Below are positions 24,058 to 55,482 of a stretch of 64,000 nt of DNA, piece by piece. Source of the DNA: Minisyncoccota bacterium (GTDB lineage Bacteria; Patescibacteriota; Minisyncoccia; Phycocordibacterales; Phycocordibacteraceae); contig DASWXP010000002.1 of NCBI GenBank assembly GCA_036405415.1, positions 340,803 through 404,802 of the forward strand, in the 5' to 3' direction. The first letter of the stretch is position 1. Each line of letters begins with the position of its first letter. The translations under genes were made by a program, and so were the position numbers. The notes under the pieces were generated by a model. That model saw only the letters and a program-made list of their open reading frames with translations. It had not been told where the DNA came from and made no database searches.

Positions 24058-24059
24058 CT

Positions 24060-24533: not shown

Positions 24534-24589
24534 ACCTTCACTATACACGCTTCCCTGCAACGAACGTGGGATTCTGTGTATTAAACGCA

Positions 24590-24610: not shown

Positions 24611-24631
24611 TGCTATCCGAAAGATTCGGGA

Positions 24632-25090
24632 TTACGGGCAAGCGCCGTCCGTAAGGGTCGGAGCCGAGCTCGTGGTGCTTGCGTAGCCAGAGGAGTCAAC
24701 GCAGTAGTACTGCGAGGTGCTGCTCTTCATCTGTGCAGAAGCTGCCCAGAGAGTGTTGCTTGCGTAACACTGCACTGCGCCAGAGCCTGCCGAGGTTGCT
24801 GCAGCGATGTTATCGCCGATGACGTTGGTGCCGGAAGCTGCACAAACGCCTGCATTCGCAGTCACGGTGCCGCTTGATGCGTACGCGTTGCTGTTTCCGT
24901 CGTAGTAGAGCTCAGCCTCTGCGCGAGCGTTGGCGAGGTTCGACTTGATGGCAGCATCTGCACCGCGGTTACGCGCGGTGTTAAGGGACGCGAGCACCAC
25001 AGACGAGAGGATGCCGATGATCGCGATCACCACGAGAAGCTCGATGAGGGTGAAACCGCGGTCGGCCTTTGAGTGTCCGAGAAGGGTCAT
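24632..25090 (-). CDS. pilA: type IV major pilin (PilA-like), copy 2
   Basis: The N-terminal 33 codons are identical at the DNA level to copy 1 (RGFTLIELLVVIAIIGILSSVVLASLNTARNRGAD); divergent Ser/Thr/Ala-rich C-terminal domain. Confidence 0.85.
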   Translation of the reverse strand: MTLLGHSKADRGFTLIELLVVIAIIGILSSVVLASLNTARNRGADAAIKSNLANARAEAELYYDGNSNAYASSGTVTANAGVCAASGTNVIGDNIAAATSAGSGAVQCYASNTLWAASAQMKSSTSQYYCVDSSGYASTTSSAPTLTDGACP

Positions 25091-25192
25091 AGTATCAATT
25101 AGGGCGTAATTACTGGGCAGAATGCTAAATATCCGCTTGCTGCTAATTGTACGGCACTGCGGTTACGCGAGGCCCTGCCGTGGGGATAACCC

Positions 25193-26401: not shown

Positions 26402-26404
26402 AGA

Positions 26405-27472
26405 CTATAGGTAGCGTTCGAACGTCTTCGGATCGTTCGCGCGCTCGTACGCGTGCTCGATTGTCACTTCGCCGCGTCGCACGAGCTCAGCCAAAGAACG
26501 GTCCATGTCGATCATGCCCTCCTGGCTCGAGGTCTGGATCACGGTGGTGATCTCATGCGTGCGGCCCTCGCGGATAAGGTTCGCGATAGCGCTGTTATTT
26601 ATGAGAAGCTCGTACGCCGGAAGCTGCCCGCCCGAGATGCGCGGAATGAGGCGCTGCGAGAAGATGCCCGCGAGCGAGCCTGCGAGCTGCACGCGGACCT
26701 GGTCCTGCTGGTTCGGCGGGAACATGTCGATGATGCGGTCGATGGTCTGCGCCGCATTATTAGTGTGAAGCGTCGAGAGGACGAGGTGTCCGGTCTCAGC
26801 CGCGGTAACCGCCGAAGAGATGGTCTCCTGATCGCGCATCTCGCCCACCATGATCACGTTCACGTCCTCGCGGAACGCGGACTTGAGCGCTGCCGCGAAG
26901 TTCGGCGTATCGATGTGCACCTCGCGCTGGTGGATGAGCGACTTCTTCTGATCAAAGATGTACTCGATCGGATCCTCGATCGTAACGATATGCTCCGCGC
27001 GCGTCTCGTTGATTCGGTCGAGGATCGTCGCGAGCGTCGTCGACTTGCCCTGCCCCACCGGACCCACCACGAGGAAGAATCCCTGCGAGCGCTGGCTGAA
27101 GACTTCGAGGATCGGCGGGAGATTCAGGTTCTCGAACGAGCGGATCTCGTGCGGGATGAGGCGCATCGCGATCGCCACGTTCCCCTGCACGGTGTAGCCG
27201 TTCACGCGAAAGCGCGCTTTCTCGGTGTGCGCGTACGAAAAGTCTATGGCCTGCTCGCTCGAGAAAGCTGCATAGCGGTTCTCCGGCGCGATCGCCTTGA
27301 GGATGGTGGCGGTATCAGCGGGCGTAAGGACTGGGTGCTGCAGAAGCGGCACCAGGGAGCCTGAGATGCGGAGGATCGGGTTGTTCCCTGGAGAAAGATG
27401 GATGTCCGACGCGCCTTCGGAGACGACGGTATCGAGGAGCGTCTTTACCTGTGCACCTGCATCGGCGCTCAT
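26405..27472 (-). CDS. pilT: type IV pilus retraction ATPase PilT
   Basis: Walker A GPVGQGKST, Asp box, Walker B, His box (TLHTNNAAQTIDRI); 355 aa. Confidence 0.85.
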   Translation of the reverse strand: MSADAGAQVKTLLDTVVSEGASDIHLSPGNNPILRISGSLVPLLQHPVLTPADTATILKAIAPENRYAAFSSEQAIDFSYAHTEKARFRVNGYTVQGNVAIAMRLIPHEIRSFENLNLPPILEVFSQRSQGFFLVVGPVGQGKSTTLATILDRINETRAEHIVTIEDPIEYIFDQKKSLIHQREVHIDTPNFAAALKSAFREDVNVIMVGEMRDQETISSAVTAAETGHLVLSTLHTNNAAQTIDRIIDMFPPNQQDQVRVQLAGSLAGIFSQRLIPRISGGQLPAYELLINNSAIANLIREGRTHEITTVIQTSSQEGMIDMDRSLAELVRRGEVTIEHAYERANDPKTFERYL

Positions 27473-27855
27473 GCGGCCTCAATTATCTTGATAGTCTCTG
27501 CGAACACTTCAGACGGAATCGCGGAAGCCTTAATGATGTACCCGTCCGCGCCAAGCGCCTTCGCCTGCTCAATGTCTGATTCTTGTCCCTGGTTCGAGAG
27601 GATGATGACCTTCGTGCTGCGTTTGAGGTTCTCGCGCTTGATCACCTCGAGGATCTCAAGACCCGTCATGCCCGGCATCACGATATCAAGGAGAAGCGCG
27701 TCAGGACCTTCGCCTTCGCGCAGCACCTTGAGGAGCTCGTCGCCCCCTGAGAACGCGGTTACCGCATGCCCCGCCGCCTTGAACTTGACGGCATACATAT
27801 CAAGGAGGAATCGGTCGTCATCGACCAGGTAGAGCGTGTACGGGGCAGTAGGCAT
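27469..27855 (-). CDS. single-domain CheY-like response regulator (receiver only)
   Basis: DDD acidic pocket (LYLVDDDRF), phospho-Asp in LLLDIVMPGMTG, and the conserved Lys (GADGYIIKA); 128 aa; overlaps the pilT start. Confidence 0.75.
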   Translation of the reverse strand: MPTAPYTLYLVDDDRFLLDMYAVKFKAAGHAVTAFSGGDELLKVLREGEGPDALLLDIVMPGMTGLEILEVIKRENLKRSTKVIILSNQGQESDIEQAKALGADGYIIKASAIPSEVFAETIKIIEAA

Positions 27856-27866
27856 GATTCTGGTTC

Positions 27867-29615
27867 TTAGGCAGGCGTCTCTTCAGCATCGATGAGCATC
27901 TGTCCGCCGAGGGCGTTCACTTCCTCGAACGGAATCTCTCCTGCTAACGCCTTAATGATAGCATCCTCGCGCATCGTCAACATGCCCTTGGCGCGGGCTG
28001 CCGCGTACACGCTTTCCTCGGTCGGCTTCGTAAGGACGACGTGCTCGAGGTCCGCATCCATGCGCAGGAACTCGAACACCGCGAGACGGCCGCGCGTGCC
28101 GTTCGGACAGTCCGCGGTAGGGCTCGCCCGGTAGAACTGCTTGAACTCCGGAAGGTTCTTATGGAATTCCTGCGGGAGGTCCGCGAACTCCTTATCAAGG
28201 AGCCCACGCATGCTCTCAGAAAGCGGGATCGGCTGCCCTGCCCCCGGGCAGAGCCTTCTCACGAGGCGCTGGCCGATGGCTGCGATCAAGGTCGGCGCGA
28301 TGAGATACGGATCCACGCCCATGTCCACCAGGCGCGGGATCACGCCCGCGGCGGTATTCGTGTGGATGGTCGAGAACACCAAGTGTCCGGTGAGGGCCGC
28401 CTGGATCGCGAGCTGCGCGGTCTCCTTATCGCGGATCTCTCCCACCATGATGATGTCCGGGTCCTGACGGAGTATGGAGCGCAGACCTGACGCGAAGGTG
28501 TAGCCGATCTCGGGCTTCACCTGCGACTGCGCGACGCCCGGGATCTCGTACTCGACCGGGTCCTCGATGGACACCACGTTCGCGGCTTCGCGATCGAGCT
28601 CTGAGAGCATCGAGAACAGGGTCGTCGACTTACCTGAACCGGTCGGTCCTGCGATAAGCACGATGCCGTACGGCTGGCGGATGATCTCGCGAACCTGTTC
28701 GAGGTCGCGCTTGGAAAGACCCACGGTCTCAAGTGTTGCGACCGAACGCGCGCTATCGAGGATACGCATCACCACCTTCTCTCCTCCCTGTGTCGGGAAG
28801 GTCGAAACGCGGAAGTCGATGCGGCGTCCTTCCACGGTAGCGGAAAAGCGGCCGTCCTGCGGCTTTCGCTTCTCGTCGAGGCGGATCTGCGAGAGGATCT
28901 TGATACGCGCCACCACGGCCGCATGCACCTTTGCCGGAAGCTCGAGCGAAGTGTGGAGCTCGCCGTCCATGCGGAATCGTACCCGCGTCTTCTCTGGCGT
29001 CGGCTCGATATGGATATCAGACGCACCGCCTTCAACCGCATAGCGGAGGATCGTGGCGACGATTTTCGTTACCGGCGCGTCCGCCTTGATGGTGGTCTCA
29101 ACCGCCTCGGGAGCCGCGCCCTTCTCCTCCCCGTCTGCGGGCGCAGCGGTCGTGCCTTCAAACTCCGAGAGCGCTTCGCCCACTTCCCCGGAAAGGTTCT
29201 CGTACTCTTTCAACACGCGATCGAAGTCCGCTTCCGAGATCAGGAAGAGCTTGTACGGCATACCCACGCGGCTCGAGATGAACTGAAGCGCATCCAAGGC
29301 TTCTATATTGTCCGGATCGACGATACCGACCGAGAGCGCGCCATCCGCTACCGAGAGCGGGACGAAGCGGTAGTGCCGCGCAGACTCTTCCGGGATATAG
29401 CCGAGCGTCTCCTTGGAAGCCGGTTCCTGCGGGAGCGCGAGGTACGGGATCGAATAGTGCTCGCTTGCGACCTGGTACGCCTTCTCGATAGAGATCCCGC
29501 GCTTGTCGAGCGCGGACGCAAGCGTGCTGCCGGGCGCGCGCGCCTCTTCAGCAACGCGTGCCGCGTCTTCCTTTGAGAGAAGCCCCTGTTCCGTAAGCAG
29601 CGAAAGAAGATTCAT
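27867..29615 (-). CDS. pilB: type IV pilus assembly ATPase PilB (GspE family) with N-terminal T2SSE_N domain
   Basis: Walker A GPTGSGKST, His box, tetracysteine-less GspE core; 582 aa. Confidence 0.85.
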   Translation of the reverse strand: MNLLSLLTEQGLLSKEDAARVAEEARAPGSTLASALDKRGISIEKAYQVASEHYSIPYLALPQEPASKETLGYIPEESARHYRFVPLSVADGALSVGIVDPDNIEALDALQFISSRVGMPYKLFLISEADFDRVLKEYENLSGEVGEALSEFEGTTAAPADGEEKGAAPEAVETTIKADAPVTKIVATILRYAVEGGASDIHIEPTPEKTRVRFRMDGELHTSLELPAKVHAAVVARIKILSQIRLDEKRKPQDGRFSATVEGRRIDFRVSTFPTQGGEKVVMRILDSARSVATLETVGLSKRDLEQVREIIRQPYGIVLIAGPTGSGKSTTLFSMLSELDREAANVVSIEDPVEYEIPGVAQSQVKPEIGYTFASGLRSILRQDPDIIMVGEIRDKETAQLAIQAALTGHLVFSTIHTNTAAGVIPRLVDMGVDPYLIAPTLIAAIGQRLVRRLCPGAGQPIPLSESMRGLLDKEFADLPQEFHKNLPEFKQFYRASPTADCPNGTRGRLAVFEFLRMDADLEHVVLTKPTEESVYAAARAKGMLTMREDAIIKALAGEIPFEEVNALGGQMLIDAEETPA

Positions 29616-29690
29616 CGCGTAGGCCTTCGCGGAGGATTACACCTTCCGCAACGCATCGTTATGCACCCTGGTATGTACGTAGTGTAACGC

Positions 29691-29718
29691 GTAAGAGGCA
29701 CGTTGCCGTGCCTCTTAC
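29691..29718 (-). terminator. hairpin gtaagaggcacg-ttgc-cgtgcctcttac
   Basis: Perfect 12-bp stem just 3-prime of the minus-strand ORF 29739..30047, separating the pilMNO transcript from pilB. Confidence 0.55.
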
Positions 29719-29738
29719 TGCGGACCTGTGGGATATCG

Positions 29739-30047
29739 CTACTGCGCAGCGACGCCCGGGAGCGGCGAGAAGGGATCAGGACGACCGCCCGCTTCAGGGA
29801 GAATCGCGGTCTTGATGTCGATGAGCGCTGCGAAGCGCGGATCGCTCAGGATGCTCGCGTCGAACCCGATCGGTTCGAGCTGCGCGGCGAGCGTGAGGAA
29901 CGAGGCCTGGGCCTCGCTGGTCGGGCCGCCGTCCATATATGAGATATCAGGCTGCGCCGGCTGGCTTTGCCAGAGGAAATAGAGCGCTGCTCCGCCAACG
30001 ACGATAGCCAGAGCGATGTACATGAGGGTGTTCTTCTTGAGCGCCAT
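29739..30047 (-). CDS. small membrane-anchored protein (possible PilP-like pilus assembly component)
   Basis: 102 aa; TM helix MYIALAIVVGGAALYFLW; sits directly downstream of pilO in the same orientation. Confidence 0.45.
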   Translation of the reverse strand: MALKKNTLMYIALAIVVGGAALYFLWQSQPAQPDISYMDGGPTSEAQASFLTLAAQLEPIGFDASILSDPRFAALIDIKTAILPEAGGRPDPFSPLPGVAAQ

Positions 30048-30057
30048 AAGAGTACGG

Positions 30058-30630
30058 TTATCGGAGCCAGTAGAGGCGGAACGTTATGTCGTAGGTGTAC
30101 ACGCCCGTGTTCGAGTCGTCGACCGACAGCTCCACGATATCGAGCGGCCGCAGGCTCTGCTCCACGCCCGCGAGGAACGTGCGGAAGGCGCCGTAGCTGC
30201 CGGTAGCAGAGACCGAGAGCTCGAGCGAATCCGTGGTATCGGACGCCTCGAGCGGGATCGCGCCGCTATCAATAACGGGCTGCGTGCTCGTTCCAGCGGT
30301 CTCCCCTCCCTCGATATCGAAATCAGAGAGCGTAACCCCGGAGCGCGCTGCGAGCGAATTCAGATCGACGATGAGCTGCACGTTATCGACATTGTCGGGA
30401 AGGAACGCCTCGAGGCGCGCGAGCTGGTCCGCTGAGAGCGTGTTGCGTTCCTGCGTAAGTGCGAGCTCCTTCTCCTTGAACTGTCGTGCTGCCATAAGCG
30501 CCGAATCGAGATTCTCGATCTCGTCCTGCAGCACCGCGACGGATCCGCTGAACGTCGGCTGCACGTATGCGAGGAATATGCCTACCGCGAGGACTATGAA
30601 GAAGAGCGGGAGAAGTCGTGAGGAGATCAT
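30058..30630 (-). CDS. pilO: type IV pilus assembly protein PilO-like
   Basis: N-terminal TM helix then a coiled-coil periplasmic domain; gene order pilM-pilN-pilO. Confidence 0.6.
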   Translation of the reverse strand: MISSRLLPLFFIVLAVGIFLAYVQPTFSGSVAVLQDEIENLDSALMAARQFKEKELALTQERNTLSADQLARLEAFLPDNVDNVQLIVDLNSLAARSGVTLSDFDIEGGETAGTSTQPVIDSGAIPLEASDTTDSLELSVSATGSYGAFRTFLAGVEQSLRPLDIVELSVDDSNTGVYTYDITFRLYWLR

Positions 30631-31334
30631 AGGCGGTTGGTGGTTGTCGCGGTGGTCGTGGCCCTGGTACTCGTCGCAGGCGCCGATACCGGTGCTTGCG
30701 GCTGCGCAGGCGCTTCGGCACCTTCTGCCGGCGCCGAAGAATCAGGGATGCCTGGCAATACCTCCCCTGCGGTTATGAGGCGCGGATCGAGTGATGCGGT
30801 AAGCGTGAACGAGACCGTGCCGTTCGTGTTAACAGAGATGTTCGAGAATATCGCGCGCTTGATGCGACGCTCCCCTGCGAGCGCTGCGCTCTGCGCTGCA
30901 AGCGCGTTGAAGGAACGCGCCACGCCTTCGGTCTCGATCTCCGCAGTGCGATCATCCGCTACCGAGATGGAAAGCGTGCTGAAGCGCACGTTCTGGAGCG
31001 TGCGCGCCTCGAGCGTATCGAAGAACTCGGAAAGCGTAATGTGCTTGTTGAGGATCGTCTCGACCGATTCGAGGCGGTCGCGCAGACGCACGAAGTCCTC
31101 TACCGCATCGATATCGACGCTCTGCTGCGCGACCGCGAGCTCCGCTGCCTTCGCGTCGCGCGCGCTCTTGAGGTAGAACTCGTATCCGAAGGTGGCGAGC
31201 GCTCCCACGATGCTTACGCCAAGAAGCACGAGCGCCATGACAGAGAAGATATTCGTGCCGCTCTTCTGCCGCATCGATGGCGCGACAGGCTGTTTCGGCA
31301 CGAATGACGTCGGTATGGTCGGAGGAAGGGCCAC
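30627..31334 (-). CDS. pilN: type IV pilus assembly protein PilN-like
   Basis: TM helix IFSVMALVLLGVSIVGALATF followed by a coiled-coil; overlaps pilO by 4 nt. Confidence 0.6.
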   Translation of the reverse strand: MALPPTIPTSFVPKQPVAPSMRQKSGTNIFSVMALVLLGVSIVGALATFGYEFYLKSARDAKAAELAVAQQSVDIDAVEDFVRLRDRLESVETILNKHITLSEFFDTLEARTLQNVRFSTLSISVADDRTAEIETEGVARSFNALAAQSAALAGERRIKRAIFSNISVNTNGTVSFTLTASLDPRLITAGEVLPGIPDSSAPAEGAEAPAQPQAPVSAPATSTRATTTATTTNRL

Positions 31335-31390
31335 AGTAGTATCAGTATACGAGGCAGAAGCGCATTTTACGCCGCTTTATGCACAGCGCG

Positions 31391-32479
31391 CTATCCTTGC
31401 TCCTCGAGCTTGCGGAGTGCAAGCCCTACCGCAACCGCGAACTCAGGACCGATCTCCTCGAGCACCGGGCGCATGAATGCCGGAGCCTGCGTCTTCCCGA
31501 ACGGATTCGCGACATGCACTTCCATATTAAAGAAACTCTTCGCGTATGCCTGGAGCGCCTTGGTGACGCCGCCGCCGCCGGTAAGCACGAGTCCTGAAAC
31601 CTGGGTACCCTTCACTTGCTGGTACTGGTCCAGGGCCCGCTTCGCTTCCTCGAAGATGCGCGAGAACATGAGCTCTATTGAGCGCGGATCATAGGACCCG
31701 GATCCGTCAGCGAATCCGTGCTCTTTCTTGAGCGCTTCTGCGCTCGCGACCGGGATGCCGCTCGCGGTCGCGATGGTGCGCGTCACATCCTGCCCGCCGC
31801 GCGGGATGTTATGCGAGAGCGCGACGACGCCATGCTCGACCACGTATACCTTGGTTGCGGACGCACCGATATCAAGCACCAGCACCGGCTTCACCGGCTC
31901 GTCCACCACCGAGCGGATCGTACTGAAGATCTCGATCTCGTAGAACGTAGCCGCAAGCTGCGACGTGGTAACCACGCTCTCAAGGAGCGTGAGCTCGTCG
32001 TTATGTACCGCGACAAGTAGTACCTGCACCTTGGAAGGCGGTGCCGCACCCTCAGGAATCGCTTCGGGGATGATGAACCAGTCAAGCTGCACCTCGGAAA
32101 CCGGCACCGGGATGTACTTGCGCGCCTCAAGCTCGATAACCGTCTTCTGCTCATCCGGGTTCTCGCGGCGCGGAAGCTCCACGAGCGTGAGCAAGGAACG
32201 CGAGAACGGTATGGAAATACCCGCGTCCTTCGTAGTGACGTTCGCTTCGCGCAAGAGATCGTTCAGGCACTCCGCGATCTTCGCTGCCGGAAGGTTCGTC
32301 GCCTGCCCGATCTCGCCGCCTGCGTAGGGCCCGAGCGCGAGCTCGCCGTAGGTCTCAAGTATCGCGGCACCACCCTCGCGGCGCAGCTGCACCACTTTCA
32401 AGGATGACGAACCGATGTCGACGCCAATCACGCTCGCGCCTTTCTTTCCTCCGCCGAATAGTTTTGAGAGGAATCCCAT
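31391..32479 (-). CDS. pilM: type IV pilus assembly ATPase-fold protein PilM
   Basis: Start at ATG 32479 (MGFLSKLFGGGKKGASVIGVDIGSSSLKVV); actin/FtsA-like fold. Confidence 0.75.
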   Translation of the reverse strand: MGFLSKLFGGGKKGASVIGVDIGSSSLKVVQLRREGGAAILETYGELALGPYAGGEIGQATNLPAAKIAECLNDLLREANVTTKDAGISIPFSRSLLTLVELPRRENPDEQKTVIELEARKYIPVPVSEVQLDWFIIPEAIPEGAAPPSKVQVLLVAVHNDELTLLESVVTTSQLAATFYEIEIFSTIRSVVDEPVKPVLVLDIGASATKVYVVEHGVVALSHNIPRGGQDVTRTIATASGIPVASAEALKKEHGFADGSGSYDPRSIELMFSRIFEEAKRALDQYQQVKGTQVSGLVLTGGGGVTKALQAYAKSFFNMEVHVANPFGKTQAPAFMRPVLEEIGPEFAVAVGLALRKLEEQG

Positions 32480-32502
32480 CGCGCGAATTGTATCATGCAT
32501 GC

Positions 32503-33126
32503 ATGAAGCTTCTCCGGGCAATCCTCGACCTCCTGTTCCCGCCGCGCGACGCCGAAGCGCTCGTGAACGGGGCGACACAGGAATCGCTCGGCGCCCTCGT
32601 GCGCGTACGCACCCACGATGACGGAACGGTCTCGCTCCTTCCCTATCGCGCGCCCCAAGTGAAAGCATGCATAACGGAAACGAAGTTCAGGGACAGCGAG
32701 AACGCGCAGACGCTGCTCGCGTCCGTCCTCAGGGAATACGTAGCGGCGCTTGAAGAAGACCTCGAGAGCTTTGAGGCGCAGACCATCGTAGTAGTGCCGG
32801 TCCCGCTCTCAGAAGCCCGAAGAAAGGAACGCGGCTATAACCAGACCGAGCGCATCGCGACGAAGGCTCTTTCTGGATTAGCGGACACCACGCTCAACAC
32901 AAAGATCCTGGTACGTACCCGCGATACCCTGCCCCAGACCTCGCTCGGAGGCCGCGAACGCAGGGAGAACCTCAAGGACGCATTCGAAGCGTCTATTCCC
33001 GACGCAACACATACCTATATAGTGTTCGATGACGTCCGAACCACCGGAACCACCCTCTCTGAAGCCGTGCAAGCACTGAAGAACGCCGGAGCCCTCAAGG
33101 TATACGGCCTTTCATTGGCGCATTAG
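32503..33126 (+). CDS. comF: ComF family protein (phosphoribosyltransferase-domain competence protein)
   Basis: PRTase motif IVFDDVRTTGTTL near the C-terminus; divergent from pilM with only a 23-bp spacer. Confidence 0.75.
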   Translation: MKLLRAILDLLFPPRDAEALVNGATQESLGALVRVRTHDDGTVSLLPYRAPQVKACITETKFRDSENAQTLLASVLREYVAALEEDLESFEAQTIVVVPVPLSEARRKERGYNQTERIATKALSGLADTTLNTKILVRTRDTLPQTSLGGRERRENLKDAFEASIPDATHTYIVFDDVRTTGTTLSEAVQALKNAGALKVYGLSLAH

Positions 33127-48597: not shown

Positions 48598-49986
48598 CTA
48601 TAGTTTCTTAACTCCCTCCTTCCCTATCTCCCACACCTCCCCCTGACTCGGCACCACCGCCTTCGCCCCGAGGAAGTCATGGATACGCTGCGCGAGAAAT
48701 CTTTGTGCGCTCGGCTCGCCGATAGACACGAAGATCGCTTTTGCGCGTGGAAGTGAGCCCTTTGCGAACCTGAGAAGCCCTTCCCTGTCCGCATGCGCGG
48801 ACCAGCTCGTAAGGCTTTCTATTGTTGCGCGCACCTTCACCTCCTGTCCGTCGATTCGTACCTTCTTCGCCCCGTCCTGAAGCAGACGTCCCGGAGAGCC
48901 TGGTGCCTGGTACCCCACGATAAAGAGCGTGGTGTCGGGGTCCGGAAGATACTTCCGCTCCCATTTCCCGATGCGGCCGCCATGAGACATGCCGGCACCC
49001 GCGATGATGAGCTTCGGATCCGGCTCGCCTGCGATGGTCTCCGAGTCCTCCCTGCTCTGCGTCATGGTTAAAAACGGGAATCGGAAGATGCTCGTCTCCT
49101 TCTTCGTCTCAGCCTTCGCGGCGTCATTGAAATACTCTGCCGCATGCTGCTCGTAGATATCCGTAACCCCAATCGCAAGTGGCGAATCGAGGAACACCGG
49201 GAACTTCGGAAGCTCCCCTGCTTCCATAAGGTTCGAGAGCTCGTACAGCATGAGCTGCGTGCGCTCCATGGAGAAAGCCGGCATGAGCATGGTTCCGCCA
49301 CGAGCAAGCGCGCGCTTGAGCGCATCGCGAAGCGCAGGTACGCGTTCCTCCACATGCTCGTGCACCCGGTCCCCGTACACCGCCTCCATGATAAGCGCGT
49401 CCGCATCAGGCACGGGTTCTGCATCGCGCAGGTACGGGTTCGGCGAGTTCCCGATGTCTCCCGTGAACGCTGCAGTGGTCCCATCCGCGTCCTTCACGCG
49501 CACGCTCCCCGCGCCAAGGATATGCCCGGTATCACGCAGGTATACGGAAAGTCCCGGCGCTATCTCCCGCTCTTCGTGATACGGAAGGATCTCAACCAGC
49601 GAGAGGAGGCGTGTCACGTCCTCCTCGCCATAGAGCGGCGTCTGTCCGTAGCGCTTCGCTTCCTGCGCGAGCAGCCCTACGCTGTCGGTCAGCATGAGCG
49701 CCATGAGGTCGCGCGTCGCCTCCGTCATATACGCTTTGCCGCGGAATCCTTCGCGCACGAGCTTCGGAGCGCGCCCTATATGATCGAGGTGCGCGTGTGT
49801 AATGACGAGCGCATCGATCTTGGTCGTGTCATATGGGAATGGCGCGTACATGCACGGAACGCAAAAGTCCTTGCCCTGCTCGAGCCCGCAGTCTATGAGG
49901 ATCCTTCCCCCTTTGATGCCCTCGACGAGGAAGTTCGAGCCGGTGACGGCACCGGCGCCGCCATGGAAGGTTACGCGGAGCGCCAT
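48598..49986 (-). CDS. MBL-fold metallo-hydrolase of the beta-CASP family (RNase J/CPSF-like ribonuclease)
   Basis: HxHxDH motif (ITHAHLDHIG), beta-CASP region, and a C-terminal RNA-metabolising domain; 462 aa. Confidence 0.7.
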   Translation of the reverse strand: MALRVTFHGGAGAVTGSNFLVEGIKGGRILIDCGLEQGKDFCVPCMYAPFPYDTTKIDALVITHAHLDHIGRAPKLVREGFRGKAYMTEATRDLMALMLTDSVGLLAQEAKRYGQTPLYGEEDVTRLLSLVEILPYHEEREIAPGLSVYLRDTGHILGAGSVRVKDADGTTAAFTGDIGNSPNPYLRDAEPVPDADALIMEAVYGDRVHEHVEERVPALRDALKRALARGGTMLMPAFSMERTQLMLYELSNLMEAGELPKFPVFLDSPLAIGVTDIYEQHAAEYFNDAAKAETKKETSIFRFPFLTMTQSREDSETIAGEPDPKLIIAGAGMSHGGRIGKWERKYLPDPDTTLFIVGYQAPGSPGRLLQDGAKKVRIDGQEVKVRATIESLTSWSAHADREGLLRFAKGSLPRAKAIFVSIGEPSAQRFLAQRIHDFLGAKAVVPSQGEVWEIGKEGVKKL

Positions 49987-50330
49987 AGCGTATAGCGGGC
50001 TATCAGGTATCCGAGCGACATGCCGACCGCATCCATCAACAGATCAAGCGACGTATCAAAGCCGAAATTCGCTTCCCGTTCAGCGTTGATACCGAGCTCA
50101 AACAGCTCCCACCCCACGGCGATAGCGAACATGCCGGAGAGGAATACGATCGCCCGATGCTTGTCCAAGAGCGCGATAAGGAAGGCCGAGACCGTAAGGC
50201 CTCCCAGGAAGTGCATGAACGTATCGAGCCAGAGGTACCGCCAGTACAGGTAGTACTCGAGCGCGACGTACTGGAAGTACGCAAGAAGCGAGGCGAGCAC
50301 GAGCGCAGCAAGGAGCCAGAAAAGGCGCAT
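49971..50330 (-). CDS. small multi-pass membrane protein, hypothetical
   Basis: 119 aa with 4 hydrophobic helices; its start overlaps the MBL gene end. Confidence 0.45.
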   Translation of the reverse strand: MRLFWLLAALVLASLLAYFQYVALEYYLYWRYLWLDTFMHFLGGLTVSAFLIALLDKHRAIVFLSGMFAIAVGWELFELGINAEREANFGFDTSLDLLMDAVGMSLGYLIARYTLWRSA

Positions 50331-50350
50331 GGCTACACTCTAGCACGCGA

Positions 50351-50376
50351 AAACCCGAGACCTTCGTCTCGGGTTT
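50351..50376. terminator. hairpin aaacccgagac-cttc-gtctcgggttt
   Basis: Perfect 11-bp stem 3-prime of the gene 49971..50330 (minus strand). Confidence 0.6.
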
Positions 50377-50379
50377 CTC

Positions 50380-50530
50380 GGAAGAACCGTCCCTAGTGGC
50401 AACTTTTGGATGCCACGTGGGTGCCCGCATCGCGGTCCCGTGAAAGCCCGAAAGCTTTGTGGAAACGCGGAATATAAGGCTCCCTGAAATTGAGCAAGTT
50501 GCGTTTTGGGACGGCTCTGAAGGCAGTATA
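50380..50530. ncRNA. candidate structured small RNA (unidentified family)
   Basis: A ~150-nt intergenic segment bracketed by two intrinsic terminators. Nested long-range complementarity (ccgtccc...gggacgg enclosing gcaactt...aagttgc) plus local hairpins (gtggc/gccac, aagc-ccgaa-gctt). No ORF with a ribosome-binding site. Confidence 0.3.
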
Positions 50531-50533
50531 CCA

Positions 50534-50556
50534 AAATCCGGCCAGAGGCCGGATTT
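50534..50556. terminator. hairpin aaatccggcc-aga-ggccggattt
   Basis: 10-bp stem 3-prime of ndk (minus strand). Confidence 0.55.
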
Positions 50557-50563
50557 CCGTGGA

Positions 50564-51172
50564 TTACTCGAGGATGCCGTCGAGGTTCACGTCGTAGAGG
50601 ATCTGGTCTCCTACGAGGCGATAGTCGATAAGCTCGTCGTCCTTGAACCAGAGCGCGATCTCCGTCTCCGCATTCTCCGGGGTGTCGGAGCAGTGGATCA
50701 GGTTGCGCACCGCGCGATCGTCGATAGCCGCGATGTTGTAGGAATCGACCGTGAAGTCGCCACGGATGGTTCCCACATCGGACGAGGACGGCTCGGTATC
50801 GCCCACGAGCTTGGTCACAACCGATACCGCGGAATTGCCCTCCCACGCCATCATCACGACAGGACCCGAAGTCATGAAGCGCTCAAGCGCGCGGATGATG
50901 TCCTTGCCGTACTCTATCGGCTCCTTCTCAGCGGAAAGGCCGGCAGCGGCACGGTCCTCGGCGATCTTCGTTCCCTTCTTGATGAACCAGGCGTCGTCCT
51001 TGTTGTAGTGCTTCCAGATGCGGTCTGCATCGAGAACGGCGAGCTTGAGGCCCACGAGCTTGAGGCCCGTGCGCTCGAAGCGCTTAATAATCTCACCGAT
51101 GAGAGAACGCTGGACGCCGTCTGGCTTCACGATAACGAACGTTCGCTCAAGCTTCGGGTGCGGAATAGGCAT
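50564..51172 (-). CDS. ndk: nucleoside diphosphate kinase (long form)
   Basis: Start ATG 51172 (MPIPHPKLERTFVIVKPDGVQRSLIGEII). NDK active-site region with the catalytic His in NLIHCSD; C-terminal extension of about 50 aa. Confidence 0.75.
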   Translation of the reverse strand: MPIPHPKLERTFVIVKPDGVQRSLIGEIIKRFERTGLKLVGLKLAVLDADRIWKHYNKDDAWFIKKGTKIAEDRAAAGLSAEKEPIEYGKDIIRALERFMTSGPVVMMAWEGNSAVSVVTKLVGDTEPSSSDVGTIRGDFTVDSYNIAAIDDRAVRNLIHCSDTPENAETEIALWFKDDELIDYRLVGDQILYDVNLDGILE

Positions 51173-51323
51173 GGATTCGATACTAAAAATCGCCCTGGGG
51201 CGTATTAATGCCATGAGTATACCCTGTTATGGAAGGAGTTACCATAATTTTGACAATAGATTTCTCAAGTTGTACATTCCTAATTAAGTTCTTTAACTGC
51301 CATGTTTACGGAAGGGTCTGGCA

Positions 51324-51686
51324 ATGGATTACGCGGATTTAAAGGCTATCGAGCCGATAGTCACAATCGGGACCACTCGCTATAAGGAGGAGATCGAAAG
51401 CTTTCTTCGTAAGGCTCTCGCCTCCGAAGGGGAAGCGTTCCCTCACTACACCATCGTCAGGGGAGGACCTGGATCTATGAGGCTCCACCTGCAAACACCG
51501 TATGCAGATTCGATAGATCTGCCGGCGAAATATCCTGATCAACTGGCGGAGGCGTATGTCGGCTTCATCGAGAATGAAGCACGGTATCCGGATCAGCCGC
51601 ATCCAGACAGGGTTCGTGGCATCGCAGTACGCACAGCGAGCATCAACGGCAAGCGCGCTGCGCTCGTCGAAGCGGTGTGGATCTGA
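51324..51686 (+). CDS. hypothetical protein
   Basis: 120-aa ORF downstream of an AT-rich 110-bp region; no motif recognised. Confidence 0.35.
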   Translation: MDYADLKAIEPIVTIGTTRYKEEIESFLRKALASEGEAFPHYTIVRGGPGSMRLHLQTPYADSIDLPAKYPDQLAEAYVGFIENEARYPDQPHPDRVRGIAVRTASINGKRAALVEAVWI

Positions 51687-51731: not shown

Positions 51732-52514
51732 CTATTTCTTCTCGTCTGGCCGTCTCGTCACCACAATCGTCCCTTCCTCTTCGATAAGAATCGTATGCTC
51801 TGAATGCGACGAGATGGAACCATCCTTCGATCGGTACGTATGTCCGTCCGGCGCAATGATAACCGTACCCTTTCCTGCGTTCGCAATCGGCTCGAGCGCG
51901 AGTACCATGCCCGGTACGAGCTCCTCTCCGGTGCCTGCGTGCCCGAAGTTCGCAATGTACGGCTCCTCGTGCACCTTGCGCCCCACCGCGTGCCCGCCGA
52001 GCACCTTCACGATGGAAAACGGCGAGCTCTTGAAGGTAGCACCAATGGCTGCCGAGATGTCGCCGATACGGCCACCAACCTTCGCCGCCTTGATGCCCTC
52101 TTCGAGCGCGTACTCGGTAGCCGCGATGAGCGCAGCAGCTTCCTTGGAGACCTTTCCGACCGGCACCGTAACCGCGGAATCCGTGAAGTACCCCTGGTGC
52201 ACGATGCCGAAATCAAGCGACACGATATCGCCCTCCTTGAGGATGCGCGGATTCTCATTCGGGATGCCGTGGACCACCTCCTCGTTCACCGACACGCAGA
52301 GCGCCGCAGGGAACGGGCGCGGCGCGCCTTCTGGCGTGTAGCCCTTGAACGCAGGCTTATCGCCGCCTTCCTCGATAAGGCGCACGGCTTCGTCCTCAAG
52401 CGTCTGCGTAGAAACTCCCGGCGCAACCATGGCTTCGAGCTTCCCAAGGATCACGCCGAGCCGGCGACCCGACTCGATGATACCCTCGCGTTCCTCAAGC
52501 GTGCGTACGACCAT
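51732..52514 (-). CDS. map: type I methionine aminopeptidase
   Basis: Metal ligands D..D..H..E..E in conserved blocks (VHGIP, DIVSLDFG, GHAVG, LALEP); 260 aa. Confidence 0.85.
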   Translation of the reverse strand: MVVRTLEEREGIIESGRRLGVILGKLEAMVAPGVSTQTLEDEAVRLIEEGGDKPAFKGYTPEGAPRPFPAALCVSVNEEVVHGIPNENPRILKEGDIVSLDFGIVHQGYFTDSAVTVPVGKVSKEAAALIAATEYALEEGIKAAKVGGRIGDISAAIGATFKSSPFSIVKVLGGHAVGRKVHEEPYIANFGHAGTGEELVPGMVLALEPIANAGKGTVIIAPDGHTYRSKDGSISSHSEHTILIEEEGTIVVTRRPDEKK

Positions 52515-52516
52515 GG

Positions 52517-53131
52517 CTATAGTGAAGCACGGATTGCCGCAGCAACCTCGTCCGGAGTCTGCATACCGTCGAGCTCTGTGAAGGCGCCCTTCTCCCGGAA
52601 GAAGTCGAGCATGGGCGCGGTGTGGTTCTCGTAGACCTTGAGACGGGCGCGAACCTGAGCATCGGTACCGCTATCCGGGCGGTCCTCTACGAGCGCGCGG
52701 GTCTTCATGCGAGAAATGGCCTCCTCTTCCTCGACGGCAAGATCAAGCACGATGTAGGGGCGCTCGAGCCACTGCATAACCGCATGAAACCGCTCCGCCT
52801 GCTGGCGGGTGCGCGGATACCCGTCGCACACGAGGCCCTGGCCCTCGGGAAGCGAAAGCGCTACTTCCTCAAACAGGTAGTTCGCGAACCAGTCCGGAAG
52901 AAGCTCACCCGCGTCGTACGCCTCCTTCACATGGGCCGCAATAGGGCCGGTACCGTCGCGCAGCTGCTTGAAGCGCTCGCCGGTCGAGAAGTGGGTCCAG
53001 CCGAATTCAGCCGCAAGGCGCTTTGCCTGAGTGCCCTTCCCTGAACCAGGGCGGCCGGTAAGAAGCACGCTATGAAAAGATGATGATTGCATATGTATCG
53101 CTACTGTATCAATAAAGCTGCTGGCGCGCAC
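52517..53131 (-). CDS. adk: adenylate kinase paralog 2 (short type, no LID zinc finger)
   Basis: P-loop GRPGSGKGTQA and NMP-binding region; the probable start is the internal MQSSSFHSVLL. Lies immediately downstream of another adk copy. Confidence 0.7.
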   Translation of the reverse strand: MRASSFIDTVAIHMQSSSFHSVLLTGRPGSGKGTQAKRLAAEFGWTHFSTGERFKQLRDGTGPIAAHVKEAYDAGELLPDWFANYLFEEVALSLPEGQGLVCDGYPRTRQQAERFHAVMQWLERPYIVLDLAVEEEEAISRMKTRALVEDRPDSGTDAQVRARLKVYENHTAPMLDFFREKGAFTELDGMQTPDEVAAAIRASL

Positions 53132-53133
53132 CG

Positions 53134-53721
53134 CTACGCGATGCCAAGGACACGTGCGACCTCGCCTGCAACCTCGTCGGGACTCTGCTCGCCGTCTATA
53201 TCGATACAGACGCCTCCAGCACGGAACCGCGCGAGCGCGTGCTCCGTATAGCGTGCGTATTCTTCAAGGCGTACCGAGACGAAATGGTCGTCCGCACGCC
53301 CAGACTCTCCTTTGCGCGTATCCAGCCTCCGGTGCACCTCTTCGTCTGAAACGGATATGTTGATTACCGTGAATGGTCTCTCGAGGAATTCCGAAGCTGC
53401 GAAGATGAGCTCCGCTTCCTCGATCTTACGATTAAATCCGTCGAATATGACGCTTTCTCCGTCCGGAAGCCTGAGTGCAATCTTCAAATAGAGATACTCA
53501 ACGAACCACGGCGGCGAGAGCAGGCCCTGGTCTATCTCAAAGCGTGTCTTTCGGCCGGCAGGAGTGTCCTCCGTCGCGATAGCGCGGAACTGGTCGCCGG
53601 AGCCGAACACGCTCCACCCCGTGCGCTCCGCAAGGCGCTTGGCCTGGGTGCCCTTCCCGCTTCCCGGCTTTCCAAGAAAGAATACGGTCTGTGTATCCAT
53701 GGATTGTATAGACTCTATCAC
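53134..53721 (-). CDS. adk: adenylate kinase paralog 1 (short type)
   Basis: P-loop GKPGSGKGTQAKRLA; conserved R..D.GLL...W and DGFNRK blocks; in the canonical position after secY. Confidence 0.75.
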   Translation of the reverse strand: MIESIQSMDTQTVFFLGKPGSGKGTQAKRLAERTGWSVFGSGDQFRAIATEDTPAGRKTRFEIDQGLLSPPWFVEYLYLKIALRLPDGESVIFDGFNRKIEEAELIFAASEFLERPFTVINISVSDEEVHRRLDTRKGESGRADDHFVSVRLEEYARYTEHALARFRAGGVCIDIDGEQSPDEVAGEVARVLGIA

Positions 53722-53759
53722 CCCAAAACGCAGAAAGCCTCCCGGAGGAGGCCTCGCTG

Positions 53760-55028
53760 CTAGTACTCCCTAAGGGACGCCTGCGCGTCAATCTTACGGA
53801 TGAGGTCGAGGACCACGTTCACCACGATGAGGAGCGCCGTACCGCCCACGAGGATCGCCGTGATGCCGGTGAGGCCCTGCACGATGAACGGAATAACCGC
53901 GACGAAGCCGAGGAAGAGCGCGCCCGGAAGGGTGACGCGATTAACCACGTTCCCGATGAAGGTCTCCGTCTCGCGACCAGGGCGCACGCCTGGCACGAAG
54001 GCACCCGACTTCTGGAGATTGTCCGCTACGCGCTTAGGCTCGAACGTGATGGAGGTGTAGAAGTACGTGAACATAATGACGAGCACGAAGTACACCGCGC
54101 CGTGCCACCACGGATTCGCACTGAATGCCTGGTATGCCGCGAGCGCGCCAGCCGTACCTGCGACGCCGATCGCAGAGAGACCCGTAAGGACCATCTGCGG
54201 AAGGAGGAGGAGGGAGAGCGCGAAGATGATCGGCATCACGCCGGCCTGAAGGAGGCGGATCGGAAGATAGGTCGGTGCCATAGACATCGCGCCGCGCGTC
54301 GCGCGCGCGTAATGGATCGGGATGGAACGTTCAGCCTCGGACACGAGCACCACCGCGAAGATGATCGCAAGGCCGATGAGGGCGAACCCAAGGTATGCCG
54401 GGATGTTCGCCGCGGTCGCGGTGAAGAGCACCTGCGAGAGGCCTGCCGGAAGCGCAGCCACGATACCTGCGAAGATGATGAGCGAGACGCCGTTGCCGAT
54501 GCCGAACTCCGTGATGAGCTCGCCGATCCACATGAGGAGGATGGAACCTGCCGCGACGAGGAAGACGTTAACCGCGAAATCGAACGGGGTGAGCGAGCGG
54601 ACGATGCCCTGACTCTCAAGCAAGGAGAGGAACGCCACGCCCTGAAGCACCGCAAGCGGAATGGTGAGCGCACGCGCGATAGACGTGAACTTCGTGCGTC
54701 CTGCGTCCCCTTCCTCGGTGTACATAGCCTTCACCTTCGGGATGAGCACGGTCGCGAGCTGCATAATGATGGACGCGGTAATGTACGGTCCTACGCCGAG
54801 CATAACGATCGAGAGGCTCGAGAGGCCGCCGCCCGAGAAGATATTCAAAAGGCCGAGGAACTGATTGTTCGCGAAGAACTGGGAGAGCGCTACCTGGTCG
54901 ACGCCCGGGATCGGGATCGCGGCAAGGAAGCGGAACACCGCGAACGCGGCAAGGATGAAGAGGATCCGGTTCCTGATGACCCGATCCGAGAAGACGACCT
55001 TGAGCTTGTGCATCGCCTTTCCGAACAT
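53760..55028 (-). CDS. secY: preprotein translocase subunit SecY
   Basis: 10-TM protein with conserved SecY blocks (FLGLLNIFSGG, GVGPYITASII); 422 aa. Confidence 0.9.
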   Translation of the reverse strand: MFGKAMHKLKVVFSDRVIRNRILFILAAFAVFRFLAAIPIPGVDQVALSQFFANNQFLGLLNIFSGGGLSSLSIVMLGVGPYITASIIMQLATVLIPKVKAMYTEEGDAGRTKFTSIARALTIPLAVLQGVAFLSLLESQGIVRSLTPFDFAVNVFLVAAGSILLMWIGELITEFGIGNGVSLIIFAGIVAALPAGLSQVLFTATAANIPAYLGFALIGLAIIFAVVLVSEAERSIPIHYARATRGAMSMAPTYLPIRLLQAGVMPIIFALSLLLLPQMVLTGLSAIGVAGTAGALAAYQAFSANPWWHGAVYFVLVIMFTYFYTSITFEPKRVADNLQKSGAFVPGVRPGRETETFIGNVVNRVTLPGALFLGFVAVIPFIVQGLTGITAILVGGTALLIVVNVVLDLIRKIDAQASLREY

Positions 55029-55032
55029 ACGA

Positions 55033-55482
55033 TTAGACGAGAGAGCCGCCGGCAGCCTCGATAGCTGCCTTCGCTGCCGCAGAGGCCGTGCAGTCAGAAA
55101 CCTTGAGCGCCTTAGTGATGGAACCGGTGCCGAGAATCTTCACGTACGCGATACGGCCGCCACGTGCTGGGATAAGCCCCTTCTTGTAGAGGGTCTCTGG
55201 AGTTACTGCGTCGCCTGCAGCGAACGCTGCCTCGAGAGTCGCGAGGTTGACCGGTGCGTACTCGCGTCGCTTCGCGCGCACGGTGCGAGCGCGGTTCTGG
55301 CCGTGACCGCGAAGCTTCGGGAGCTTCTTCAAGATGTCACGCATCTCCGGGCGCTTCCTATGACCGGCGCGCGCGTTCTGGCCCTTGGTGCCGCGACCTG
55401 AGGTCTTGCCGCGCTTACCGCCACGACCTACGCGAGGTGAGGTGATGCGCTCTGTCTTCGGGGCGAGAGTGTTGGACTGCAT
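55033..55482 (-). CDS. rplO: 50S ribosomal protein L15
   Basis: Gly/Arg-rich N-terminus GRGGKRGKTSGRGTKGQ; 149 aa. Confidence 0.85.
   Translation of the reverse strand: MQSNTLAPKTERITSPRVGRGGKRGKTSGRGTKGQNARAGHRKRPEMRDILKKLPKLRGHGQNRARTVRAKRREYAPVNLATLEAAFAAGDAVTPETLYKKGLIPARGGRIAYVKILGTGSITKALKVSDCTASAAAKAAIEAAGGSLV

What the first reader, a model, noticed from the sequence alone, without database searches (positions are those of the whole stretch)
52517..53721. Tandem adenylate kinase paralogs between secY and map
Two complete adk genes (195 and about 190-204 aa), both with an intact P-loop and both short-type without the LID zinc finger, sit head-to-tail in the canonical adk slot. Their sequences are clearly diverged (not a recent duplicate), which suggests sub-functionalisation, for example different nucleotide specificity, in a lineage with a minimal nucleotide metabolism.
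Basis: seen in the sequence. Interest (0 to 1): 0.5.

Follow-up and report, generated by a model that had tools for sequence, protein, structure and literature searches.

The report
Two unlike adenylate-kinase-type genes in tandem
A tiny-genome bacterium (Paceibacteria, candidate phyla radiation) carries an ordinary adenylate kinase next to a divergent relative with a rebuilt substrate pocket, and because sister genomes have a guanylate kinase in exactly that relative's place, it may phosphorylate GMP, which would help explain why many of these bacteria seem to lack standard nucleotide kinases.

Summary
Two intact short-LID ADK-family genes lie head-to-tail between secY and map, and they are 39% identical.

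They are not a local duplicate.
- **Upstream copy (G1):** it belongs to a Paceibacteria subfamily with an invariant remodelled NMP pocket (Q92E, P87N, T89K, T31S/A; E. coli numbering). All catalytic residues are kept. In 76 of 80 related genomes G1 is the only ADK-type gene in the slot.
- **Downstream copy (G2):** it keeps the canonical AMP-recognition set (T31, D61, P87, Q92).

In the window's own subclade the gene upstream of G2 is either G1 or a bona fide guanylate kinase (gmk). It is never both, and G2 is never alone. The gmk genes have at least three different origins, whereas G1 and G2 track the species tree. Both ADK copies are under purifying selection.

My best reading is that G2 is the AMP kinase and G1 supplies a function that gmk can replace, most likely GMP phosphorylation.

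This is inference. I could not establish genome-wide absence of gmk, and no enzymology exists.

I rate it a new variant of a known kind, of moderate to high interest. It makes the 2015 "missing NMP kinases in Parcubacteria" puzzle testable.

The parts
53760..55028 (-). secY, the upstream flank of the slot
   Evidence: Pfam PF00344, 317 bits. It occupies the same position in all related loci.
53734..53755 (-). Terminator-like GC hairpin plus T-run directly after the secY stop
   Evidence: Terminator scan hit GAGGCCTCCTCCGGGAGGCTTT/CTGCGTTTTG. A comparable hairpin is seen in the config A and B relatives L001, L002, L004, L006, L016, L018 and L022.
53712..53720 (-). Extended -10-like motif TGATAGAGT, 12 nt upstream of the G1 ATG
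   Evidence: Read in the sequence. The same position holds TGCTAGAGT, TGCTAAAGT or TGTTAGAGT in G1-only and tandem relatives. That it acts as a promoter is inferred only.
53134..53700 (-). G1: divergent ADK-family NMP kinase (188 aa) with a remodelled NMP pocket (S31, P61, N87, K89, E92; E. coli numbering)
   Evidence: Pfam ADK 70 bits. It falls below every NCBIfam adk equivalog cut-off. Identical to P0001, named 'nucleoside monophosphate kinase', Ca. Paceibacterota. Residue table. AF2 model has pLDDT 85.5 and an ADK fold. dN/dS is 0.06-0.16.
53103..53111 (-). Extended -10-like motif TGATACAGT upstream of G2
   Evidence: The promoter scan hit 53112..53083 spans this stretch, but its own -10 hexamer is AATCAT further downstream. 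The same stretch is conserved upstream of G2 in tandem relatives and in gmk-carrying relatives.
52517..53092 (-). G2: canonical-type short adenylate kinase (191 aa). T31, D61, P87, R88 and Q92 are kept; R36 is replaced by K.
   Evidence: Pfam ADK 102 bits. Best PDB matches are short bacterial ADKs. Residue table. Its orthologs sit downstream of gmk in sister genomes.
51732..52514 (-). map (methionine aminopeptidase), the downstream flank; it starts 2 nt after the G2 stop
   Evidence: Pfam PF00557, 137 bits; sequence read.
50564..51172 (-). ndk (nucleoside-diphosphate kinase), a conserved neighbour in all three locus configurations
   Evidence: NCBIfam NF001908, 145.7 bits; conserved order.

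Best explanation
The two genes are non-redundant NMP kinases of the adenylate-kinase fold.

G2 (downstream) is the AMP-specific adenylate kinase. G1 (upstream) belongs to a Paceibacteria/CPR-specific subfamily. It retains the phosphoryl-transfer machinery, but its base-recognition pocket is rebuilt around a Glu in place of the AMP-specifying Gln92.

G1 supplies an activity that G2 lacks and that a guanylate kinase can replace. That activity is most likely phosphorylation of GMP. Where G1 is the only such gene in the slot, it would phosphorylate both AMP and GMP.

Evolutionary path (inferred):
1. The large clade carried secY-G1-map.
2. One subclade added G2 downstream, giving the tandem seen in the window.
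3. G1 was then displaced at least three times by gmk genes of different origin.

Shown: the residue patterns, the gene orders, the phylogenies and purifying selection. Inferred: the substrate specificity and the direction of the events.
For: 1. **Pocket residues.** Across 120 orthologs each, K13, R88, R119, R123, R156, D158 and R167 are invariant or nearly so (at least 99%) in both families. G1 has invariant or nearly invariant (98-100%) E92, K89 and N87, plus S/A31 and H/P61. G2 has Q92, P87, T31 and D61. Among 81 ordinary bacterial ADKs, 98% have Q92, 98% P87, 97% D61 and 92% T31. Gln92 OE1 and Gly85 O contacting adenine N6 are described as the AMP-versus-GMP discriminators (PMC3369945).
2. 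**Gene order.** At rplO-secY-[X]-map-ndk there are about 80 loci with an E-type ADK alone, 9 loci (7 distinct) with gmk plus a Q-type ADK, and 5 with E-type plus Q-type. None has a Q-type alone, and none has gmk plus an E-type (contexts).
3. **Species tree.** SecY+Map+RplO NJ bootstraps give the tandem/gmk subclade 97% and its nesting inside G1-only genomes 100%. The window pairs with gmk-carrying L168 at 100%, and tandem L004 pairs with gmk-carrying L083 at 100%.
4. **Gene histories.** The G1 of tandem genomes is monophyletic and placed near its species neighbours. G2 is 58-68% identical within the clade and 38-49% to outgroups. The gmk genes are 45-55% identical between sub-lineages, as distant as to outgroups (43-59%), while SecY is 82-88%. 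This implies at least three independent gmk acquisitions at the same position.
5. **The gmk genes are genuine.** They score 158-178 bits on TIGR03263 over the full length, against a cut-off of 160.45.
6. **Selection.** dN/dS is 0.06-0.16 for G1 and 0.06-0.30 for G2 in tandem genomes, with dS saturated.
7. **Contig-length matches.** G2 and gmk hit lists share 25 contig lengths, G1 and G2 share 12, and G1 and gmk share only 1 (about 1 is my rough estimate for chance).
8. **Literature.** gmk, cmk and tmk are 'poorly represented' in Parcubacteria while adk is well represented, and relaxed ADK specificity was already speculated (PMC4508563).
Against: - No biochemical data exist for any E92-type ADK.
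- Genome-wide absence of gmk in the window genome and in G1-only genomes was not established. The contig-length trick is weak as negative evidence, because the listed contig appears to belong to the cluster representative only (the window's own G2 is hidden in cluster P0121).
- A carboxylate at position 92 would still accept a hydrogen bond from adenine N6. In the canonical binding pose it would repel guanine O6, so GMP binding would need a different pose (my inference).
- gmk may simply be dispensable in CPR that obtain NDPs from RNA through PNPase (bioRxiv 10.64898/2026.06.21.733656). Microgenomatia are reported to lack gmk (PMC9166423).
- A Q-type ADK occurs outside the slot in one Parcubacteria genome (L171), so G1-only genomes might hide another ADK elsewhere.
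- The trees are NJ only.
Confidence: 0.5

Rival explanations
1. Both genes are plain adenylate kinases. G1 is the lineage's resident ADK with a harmless lineage-specific pocket variant, and G2 is a second laterally acquired ADK kept for dosage or differential expression. The G1/gmk alternation is then a by-product of homologous recombination in a conserved operon, with gmk dispensable or encoded elsewhere.
For: G1 is the only ADK-type gene in the slot in 76 of 80 relatives, so it presumably does phosphorylate AMP. E92 can still accept a hydrogen bond from adenine N6 (inference). G1 and G2 each have their own promoter-like motif. gmk is reported absent in whole CPR classes without a known substitute.
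Against: Redundant genes are not expected to persist under dN/dS of about 0.1 past synonymous saturation in genomes of about 0.6 Mb. This reading does not explain why a Q-type ADK is never alone in the slot, why gmk never sits next to an E-type ADK, or why gmk of three different origins landed exactly in G1's place. The whole base-contacting set (31, 61, 87, 89, 92) is changed and then frozen in G1.
Confidence: 0.2
2. G1 has a changed specificity, but not for GMP. It could be a CMP/UMP or dNMP kinase, or a broad-spectrum NMP kinase substituting for several missing kinases (cmk, tmk, pyrH), as eukaryotic UMP/CMP kinases of the ADK fold do.
For: The ADK fold has evolved pyrimidine specificity before: UMP/CMP kinases are among the Foldseek hits (1uke, 2ukd, 7e9v, 1tev). 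A Glu could accept a hydrogen bond from the cytosine N4 amino group or from uracil N3-H (inference). cmk and tmk are also poorly represented in Parcubacteria.
Against: The gene that alternates with G1 is always gmk, never cmk, tmk or pyrH. G1 scores only 73 bits on the UMP-CMP kinase family model TIGR01359, whose cut-off is 207.6, and it scores higher on adk models.
Confidence: 0.2
3. One copy is a decaying pseudogene or an assembly or duplication artefact.
For: None found. The only oddity is R36 replaced by K in G2.
Against: Both are full-length with all catalytic residues. The tandem recurs in L001-L004 and in about a dozen further contigs. dN/dS is far below 1. K36 is the majority state (83%) in G2 orthologs, including those that are the only ADK next to gmk.
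Confidence: 0.02

Closest known systems
Short-type bacterial adenylate kinase (e.g. Thermus thermophilus 3CM0, Mycobacterium tuberculosis 2CDN/1P4S)
   Same: Both copies share the fold, length, P-loop, short LID, catalytic arginines and the secY-adk-map position. G2 also shares the AMP-recognition residues T31, D61, P87 and Q92.
   Different: G1 replaces the AMP-recognition set with S/A31, H/P61, N87, K89 and E92. Both copies have W62 and fall below the NCBIfam adk equivalog cut-offs. G2 has K36 and S159.
Guanylate kinase Gmk (PF00625 / TIGR03263)
   Same: It occupies exactly G1's position (secY-gmk-G2-map) in sister genomes and in more distant Paceibacteria, and is mutually exclusive with G1 there. 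Both are P-loop NMP kinases of about 190 aa.
   Different: G1 has no sequence membership: Pfam gives no PF00625 hit, and my gmk HMM scores 3.7 bits. It is a different NMP-binding domain architecture. Functional equivalence is inferred, not shown.
Eukaryotic UMP/CMP kinases and AK isoforms (AK1-AK9, AK3 GTP:AMP)
   Same: These are a precedent for ADK-fold paralogs within one genome that differ in nucleotide specificity through changes at the positions equivalent to 89-92. They are structural neighbours of the G1 model.
   Different: From my own knowledge, they carry an Asn or other residues rather than Glu at the position-92 equivalent, and none is known to take GMP as acceptor. They are unrelated in origin to the CPR E92 clade.
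The 'missing NMP kinases' puzzle in Parcubacteria (Nelson & Stegen 2015, PMC4508563)
   Same: The same organisms and the same idea: adk is present, gmk, cmk and tmk are often absent, and relaxed ADK specificity is proposed.
   Different: That paper gave no sequence or genomic evidence. Here a defined E92 subfamily, its pocket signature and its alternation with gmk are identified.

Membership tests
Adenylate kinase family (Pfam PF00406, NMP-kinase fold) | Sequence match above the Pfam gathering score, and an ADK fold | tested here: met
   G1 scores 70.3 bits and G2 101.9 bits against a cut-off of 26.8. The G1 AF2 model (pLDDT 85.5) matches ADK structures at TM 0.77-0.84.
Adenylate kinase family | P-loop GxPGxGKGT and catalytic residues K13, R88, R119, R123, R156, D158, R167 | tested here: met
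   All are present in both window genes and conserved at 99-100% in 120 orthologs of each.
Adenylate kinase (AMP-specific enzyme, NCBIfam equivalogs) | Score above the curated equivalog cut-off | tested here: not met
   Best scores are G1 99.2 and G2 138.4 bits against 187 (NF001381), and G2 124.8 against 162 (NF011105). NCBI names both 'nucleoside monophosphate kinase'.
Adenylate kinase (AMP-specific enzyme) | AMP base-recognition residues T31, Q92 (plus P87, D61) and AMP-phosphate ligand R36 | tested here: not met
   For G1 this is not met: S31, P61, N87, K89 and E92, with E92 in 120 of 120 orthologs. For G2 it is met, except that R36 is K (83% of orthologs). Ordinary ADKs have Q92 in 98% and P87 in 98%.
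Adenylate kinase | Gene position between secY and map in the ribosomal-protein operon | tested here: met
   Both genes lie there. G1 alone fills the slot in 76 relatives, and G2 fills it with gmk in 7 distinct loci.
Adenylate kinase | ATP:AMP phosphotransferase activity | not testable with these tools
   This needs enzymology. It is inferred for G2, and inferred for G1 only in genomes where G1 is the sole ADK-type gene.
Guanylate kinase (PF00625 / TIGR03263) | Sequence membership | tested here: not met
   Pfam gives no PF00625 hit for G1 or G2. My gmk HMM scores 3.7 and 5.5 bits. The true gmk genes of sister loci score 158-178 bits on TIGR03263.
Guanylate kinase (function) | ATP:GMP phosphotransferase activity | not testable with these tools
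   There is only indirect support: positional, mutually exclusive and repeated alternation of G1 with gmk.
UMP-CMP kinase family (TIGR01359) | Score above the family cut-off | tested here: not met
   G1 scores 73.1 and G2 83.9 bits against 207.6.

The most novel reading that the evidence does not exclude
E92-type ADK-fold kinases are widespread. They make up 44 of 54 single-domain 50%-identity representatives nearest G1, and the narrower G1 signature occurs in at least about 400 GTDB species genomes. The most novel reading is that they are bifunctional AMP/GMP or broad-spectrum NMP kinases that took over the role of guanylate kinase, and possibly other NMP kinases, across much of the Patescibacteria. 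The window would then catch an intermediate state in which a canonical ADK has been re-added and G1 is kept only for its non-AMP activity.
Probability: 0.35. Interest if true: 0.8.

Novelty: new variant of a known kind. Interest (0 to 1): 0.6.

Why it matters
Patescibacteria have no de novo nucleotide synthesis and must turn salvaged NMPs into NTPs. Yet gmk, cmk and tmk are often missing from their genomes, a puzzle raised in 2015 and again in 2022-2026 papers.

A defined ADK subfamily with a rebuilt base pocket that trades places with guanylate kinase gives a concrete candidate for the missing activity. It could be tested with two recombinant proteins and five substrates.

It would also be the first ADK-fold enzyme known to accept GMP, and a clean natural example of repeated non-orthologous gene displacement in a universal operon. 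If G1 turns out to be an ordinary AMP kinase, the finding reduces to an unusual but harmless paralog pair.

Tried and rejected
- **Metagenome scan.** The scan with the G2 alignment chose over-general peptide patterns and returned only unrelated ADKs (30-40% identity). I used them only as an 'ordinary ADK' control.
- **Representative search.** The 1.84-billion representative search with the G1 profile was dominated by long (up to 2,651 aa) multi-ADK-domain proteins. Only the single-domain hits were useful.
- **Contig-length matching as negative evidence.** I tried to show that the window genome lacks gmk and rejected the approach: the listed contig seems to belong to the cluster representative only.
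- **Taxonomy of other E-type representatives.** The listing of cluster members gave no names.
- **Rfam scan.** The long secY-G1 spacers in L005, L008, L014 and L079 gave no relevant family.
- **Regex residue labels.** Labelling residue 92 by regex slipped register, so I redid it from the alignment. A first dN/dS run had a 2-nt frame error and was corrected.
- **Recent tandem duplication.** Rejected: 39% identity and separate ortholog families.
- **Pseudogene.** Rejected: conserved and under purifying selection.
- **Other NMP kinases in the window.** No gmk-like or further ADK-family gene was found in the 64-kb window: a gmk HMM, the two ADK HMMs and a Walker-A scan were run. cmk, tmk and pyrH were not searched with their own models. 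This says little about the whole genome.

Full report
**1. Observation**

The minus strand carries, in order, these genes:

| Gene | Coordinates |
|---|---|
| rplO | 55033..55482 |
| secY | 53760..55028 |
| ADK-family ORF, upstream (G1) | 53134..53721 |
| ADK-family ORF, downstream (G2) | 52517..53131 |
| map | 51732..52514 |
| ndk | 50564..51214 |

The upstream ORF is 195 aa from a GTG. Its ortholog-supported start is the ATG at 53700, giving 188 aa, identical to the NCBI protein P0001 from a 622,084-bp Candidatus Paceibacterota contig. I call it G1.

The downstream ORF is 204 aa from a GTG. Ortholog lengths point to the ATG at 53092, giving 191 aa. I call it G2.

Both exceed the Pfam ADK gathering score. 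Both have intact P-loops and short LIDs, and both align end to end with the short ADKs of T. thermophilus and M. tuberculosis. They are 39% identical.

**2. Two families, not one duplicate**

Each copy retrieves its own set of more than 100 orthologs at 50-95% identity.

I aligned 120 orthologs of each with E. coli ADK. In both families K13, R88, R119, R123, R156, D158 and R167 are invariant or nearly so (at least 99%). The residues around the NMP base differ and are frozen within each family. A control set of 81 ordinary bacterial ADKs is shown alongside.

| Position | G2 | G1 | Ordinary bacterial ADKs (n=81) |
|---|---|---|---|
| 31 | T 100% | S 81% / A 18% | T 92% |
| 61 | D 99% | H 76% / P 23% | D 97% |
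| 87 | P 100% | N 98% | P 98% |
| 89 | S/T | K 99% | T 55% / N 40% |
| 92 | Q 100% | E 100% | Q 98% |

Published simulation work on E. coli ADK names Thr31-N7, Gly85 O-N6 and Gln92 OE1-N6 as the contacts that select AMP over GMP (PMC3369945). G2's only departures are K36 (83% of orthologs) and S159.

Neither copy reaches the NCBIfam adk equivalog cut-offs, so NCBI calls both 'nucleoside monophosphate kinase'.

An AF2 model of G1 (pLDDT 85.5) has the ADK fold. Its nearest solved structures are ADKs, AK1, AK5 and UMP/CMP kinases.

**3. What relatives carry in the slot**

A scan of one genome per GTDB species with the G1 signature peptides found 426 encoding stretches. The best 80 loci are Paceibacterota, Kaiserbacteria and Parcubacteria MAGs. 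Only the four closest (L001-L004) have the tandem. The other 76 have G1 alone between secY and map.

G2 orthologs in other genomes tell a different story. L081-L085 and L168 all read secY - guanylate kinase (PF00625) - G2 - map - ndk. More distant Paceibacteria with a Q92-type ADK also have gmk in that slot (L166, L167, L170).

Other E92-type ADKs sit alone, with no gmk upstream of the ADK in L169, L173 or L174; in L172 only 176 nt of upstream sequence is available.

The tally over CPR-type loci is as follows:

| Slot content | Loci |
|---|---|
| E-type ADK alone | about 80 |
| gmk + Q-type ADK | 9 (7 distinct) |
| E-type + Q-type ADK | 5 |
| Q-type ADK alone | 0 |
| gmk + E-type ADK | 0 |

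Matching contig lengths between the three hit lists adds 25 gmk+G2 pairs and 12 G1+G2 pairs, and only one G1+gmk coincidence (about one is my rough estimate for chance).

The gmk genes are genuine. They score 158-178 bits on TIGR03263 over the full length, against a cut-off of 160.45.

**4. Phylogeny**

I built an NJ tree of concatenated SecY+Map+RplO. The tandem and gmk+G2 genomes form one clade (bootstrap 97%), nested inside G1-only genomes (100%). The window pairs with gmk-carrying L168 (100%), and tandem L004 pairs with gmk-carrying L083 (100%).

The three genes have different histories:
- **G1.** The G1 of tandem genomes is monophyletic and sits among the G1 genes of its species-tree neighbours, which indicates vertical inheritance.
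- **G2.** It is 58-68% identical within the clade and 38-49% to outgroups, which also indicates vertical inheritance. In a G2 tree labelled by partner gene, G1-partnered and gmk-partnered sequences interleave repeatedly.
- **gmk.** L168 and L085 are 78% identical, but L083 and L081 are only 45-55% identical to them and to each other. That is as far as to the outgroups L166 and L167 (43-59%), although SecY is 82-88% identical. This implies at least three independent gmk acquisitions, each occupying exactly G1's place.

The sequence about 30 nt upstream of G2 (TGATACAGT-like) is shared by tandem and gmk loci. In gmk loci, gmk follows the secY stop within 4-5 nt. G1 is instead preceded by a terminator-like hairpin and a TGnTAGAGT motif, as in G1-only genomes.

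**5. Selection**

Between tandem genomes, dN/dS is 0.06-0.16 for G1 and 0.06-0.30 for G2, with synonymous sites near saturation. Both genes have been maintained for a long time side by side.

G1 of tandem genomes differs from G1-only genomes at six positions. Three lie in the NMP-binding domain (H61P, A64V, M65E). These may simply be clade synapomorphies. G2 shows no position that separates G1-partnered from gmk-partnered genomes.

**6. Interpretation**

Shown:
- Two intact kinases differ in their acceptor pockets.
- G1 is the resident gene and G2 is an addition in one subclade.
- G1 and gmk alternate at one position, repeatedly and exclusively.
- G2 is never alone.

Inferred:
- G1 provides something G2 cannot and gmk can, and the simplest candidate is GMP phosphorylation.
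- Where G1 is the only ADK-type gene, it must also phosphorylate AMP, so the G1-only form would be bifunctional.
- Chemically, a carboxylate at 92, a Lys at 89 and loss of Pro87 (which frees a backbone NH) are the kinds of groups that read guanine N1-H/N2-H2 and O6. This is my reasoning, not a test. In the canonical adenine pose a Glu would repel O6, so a shifted pose would be needed.

Literature fits the reading. gmk, cmk and tmk are poorly represented in Parcubacteria while adk is present, and relaxed ADK specificity was suggested (PMC4508563).

**7. Caveats and rivals**

- I could not see whole genomes, so a gmk elsewhere in the window genome is not excluded.
- The 'longest_contig' field cannot be used as negative evidence.
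- gmk may be dispensable where PNPase yields NDPs from host RNA, and Microgenomatia are reported to lack it.
- One Parcubacteria genome has a Q-type ADK outside the slot (L171).

The rivals are two redundant AMP kinases (confidence 0.2), G1 specific for another NMP or broad-spectrum (0.2), and a pseudogene (0.02, rejected).

**8. Novelty**

E at position 92 is not confined to G1. Of the 54 single-domain 50%-identity representatives nearest the G1 profile, 44 have E92.

The paper library returned no description of this subfamily or of its alternation with gmk.

I rate it a new variant of a known kind: an ADK-fold NMP kinase with altered acceptor recognition. The genes themselves are already deposited and generically named.

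Noticed in passing
L005:3796-4000, L008:3808-4000, L014:3809-4000, L079:3887-3990: In the G1-only genomes closest to the window's clade, the secY-G1 spacer is 100-200 nt instead of about 60. It holds a conserved element (GTTGCGGGTCCCGA.TCGTCGCT.CGTCGTACTGCTAGTACGCCTCCGCT...CCCGCGCC). No Rfam family matches it, so it could be a leader or another structured RNA.
   Followed up: partly
window 53734-53755 and 53712-53720; window 53103-53111: A terminator-like hairpin follows secY, and extended -10-like motifs lie just upstream of G1 (TGATAGAGT) and of G2 (TGATACAGT). Both motifs are conserved in relatives. This suggests that each kinase gene has its own short-leader promoter inside the ribosomal-protein operon.
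   Followed up: partly
L171:3001-3573 (GCA_028286505.1, Parcubacteria): A Q92-type ADK (P0453) lies outside the ribosomal operon, between recJ and RNase H/comEC. Some Parcubacteria may therefore carry an ADK away from the canonical slot.
   Followed up: no
window 50564-51214: The ndk product is about 202 aa against a 141-position NCBIfam model (NF001908). It matches the NCBIfam ndk models in two stretches and stays just below cut-off (145.7 against 155), which suggests an internal insertion. Relatives have the same length.
   Followed up: no
L167:5597-6163: The ADK next to gmk in this outgroup genome has an unusual P-loop, GKPASGKET, with Glu in place of the usual Gly after the catalytic Lys.
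   Followed up: no
L121:about 4001-4732 (metagenome contig Ga0105047_10048395): An unrelated metagenome contig also carries two adjacent ADK-type ORFs, both with Q92 (DGMPRNVRQ and DGLPRSVKQ). Tandem ADKs therefore occur elsewhere, with a different pocket pattern.
   Followed up: no
window 21020-32668: A type IV pilus-like cluster lies here: PilB-like ATPase with MshEN domain (27867-29615), PilT-like ATPase (26405-27472), PilC-like T2SSF (25193-26401) and several pseudopilins with N-methylation motifs. This is typical of CPR DNA-uptake or attachment machinery.
   Followed up: partly
L081:7162-8271 and L168:8158-8774 versus window 50330-50564: Between ndk and the DUF2238/beta-CASP genes, some sister genomes have Fic or MazE-Fic modules that the window lacks. 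This neighbourhood therefore takes up small insertions.
   Followed up: no
window 51324-51686 (+) and 49971-50330 (-): Two conserved-position small ORFs (120 and 119 aa) have no Pfam hit. The 119-aa ORF occupies the position of the DUF2238-type membrane protein of relatives.
   Followed up: no
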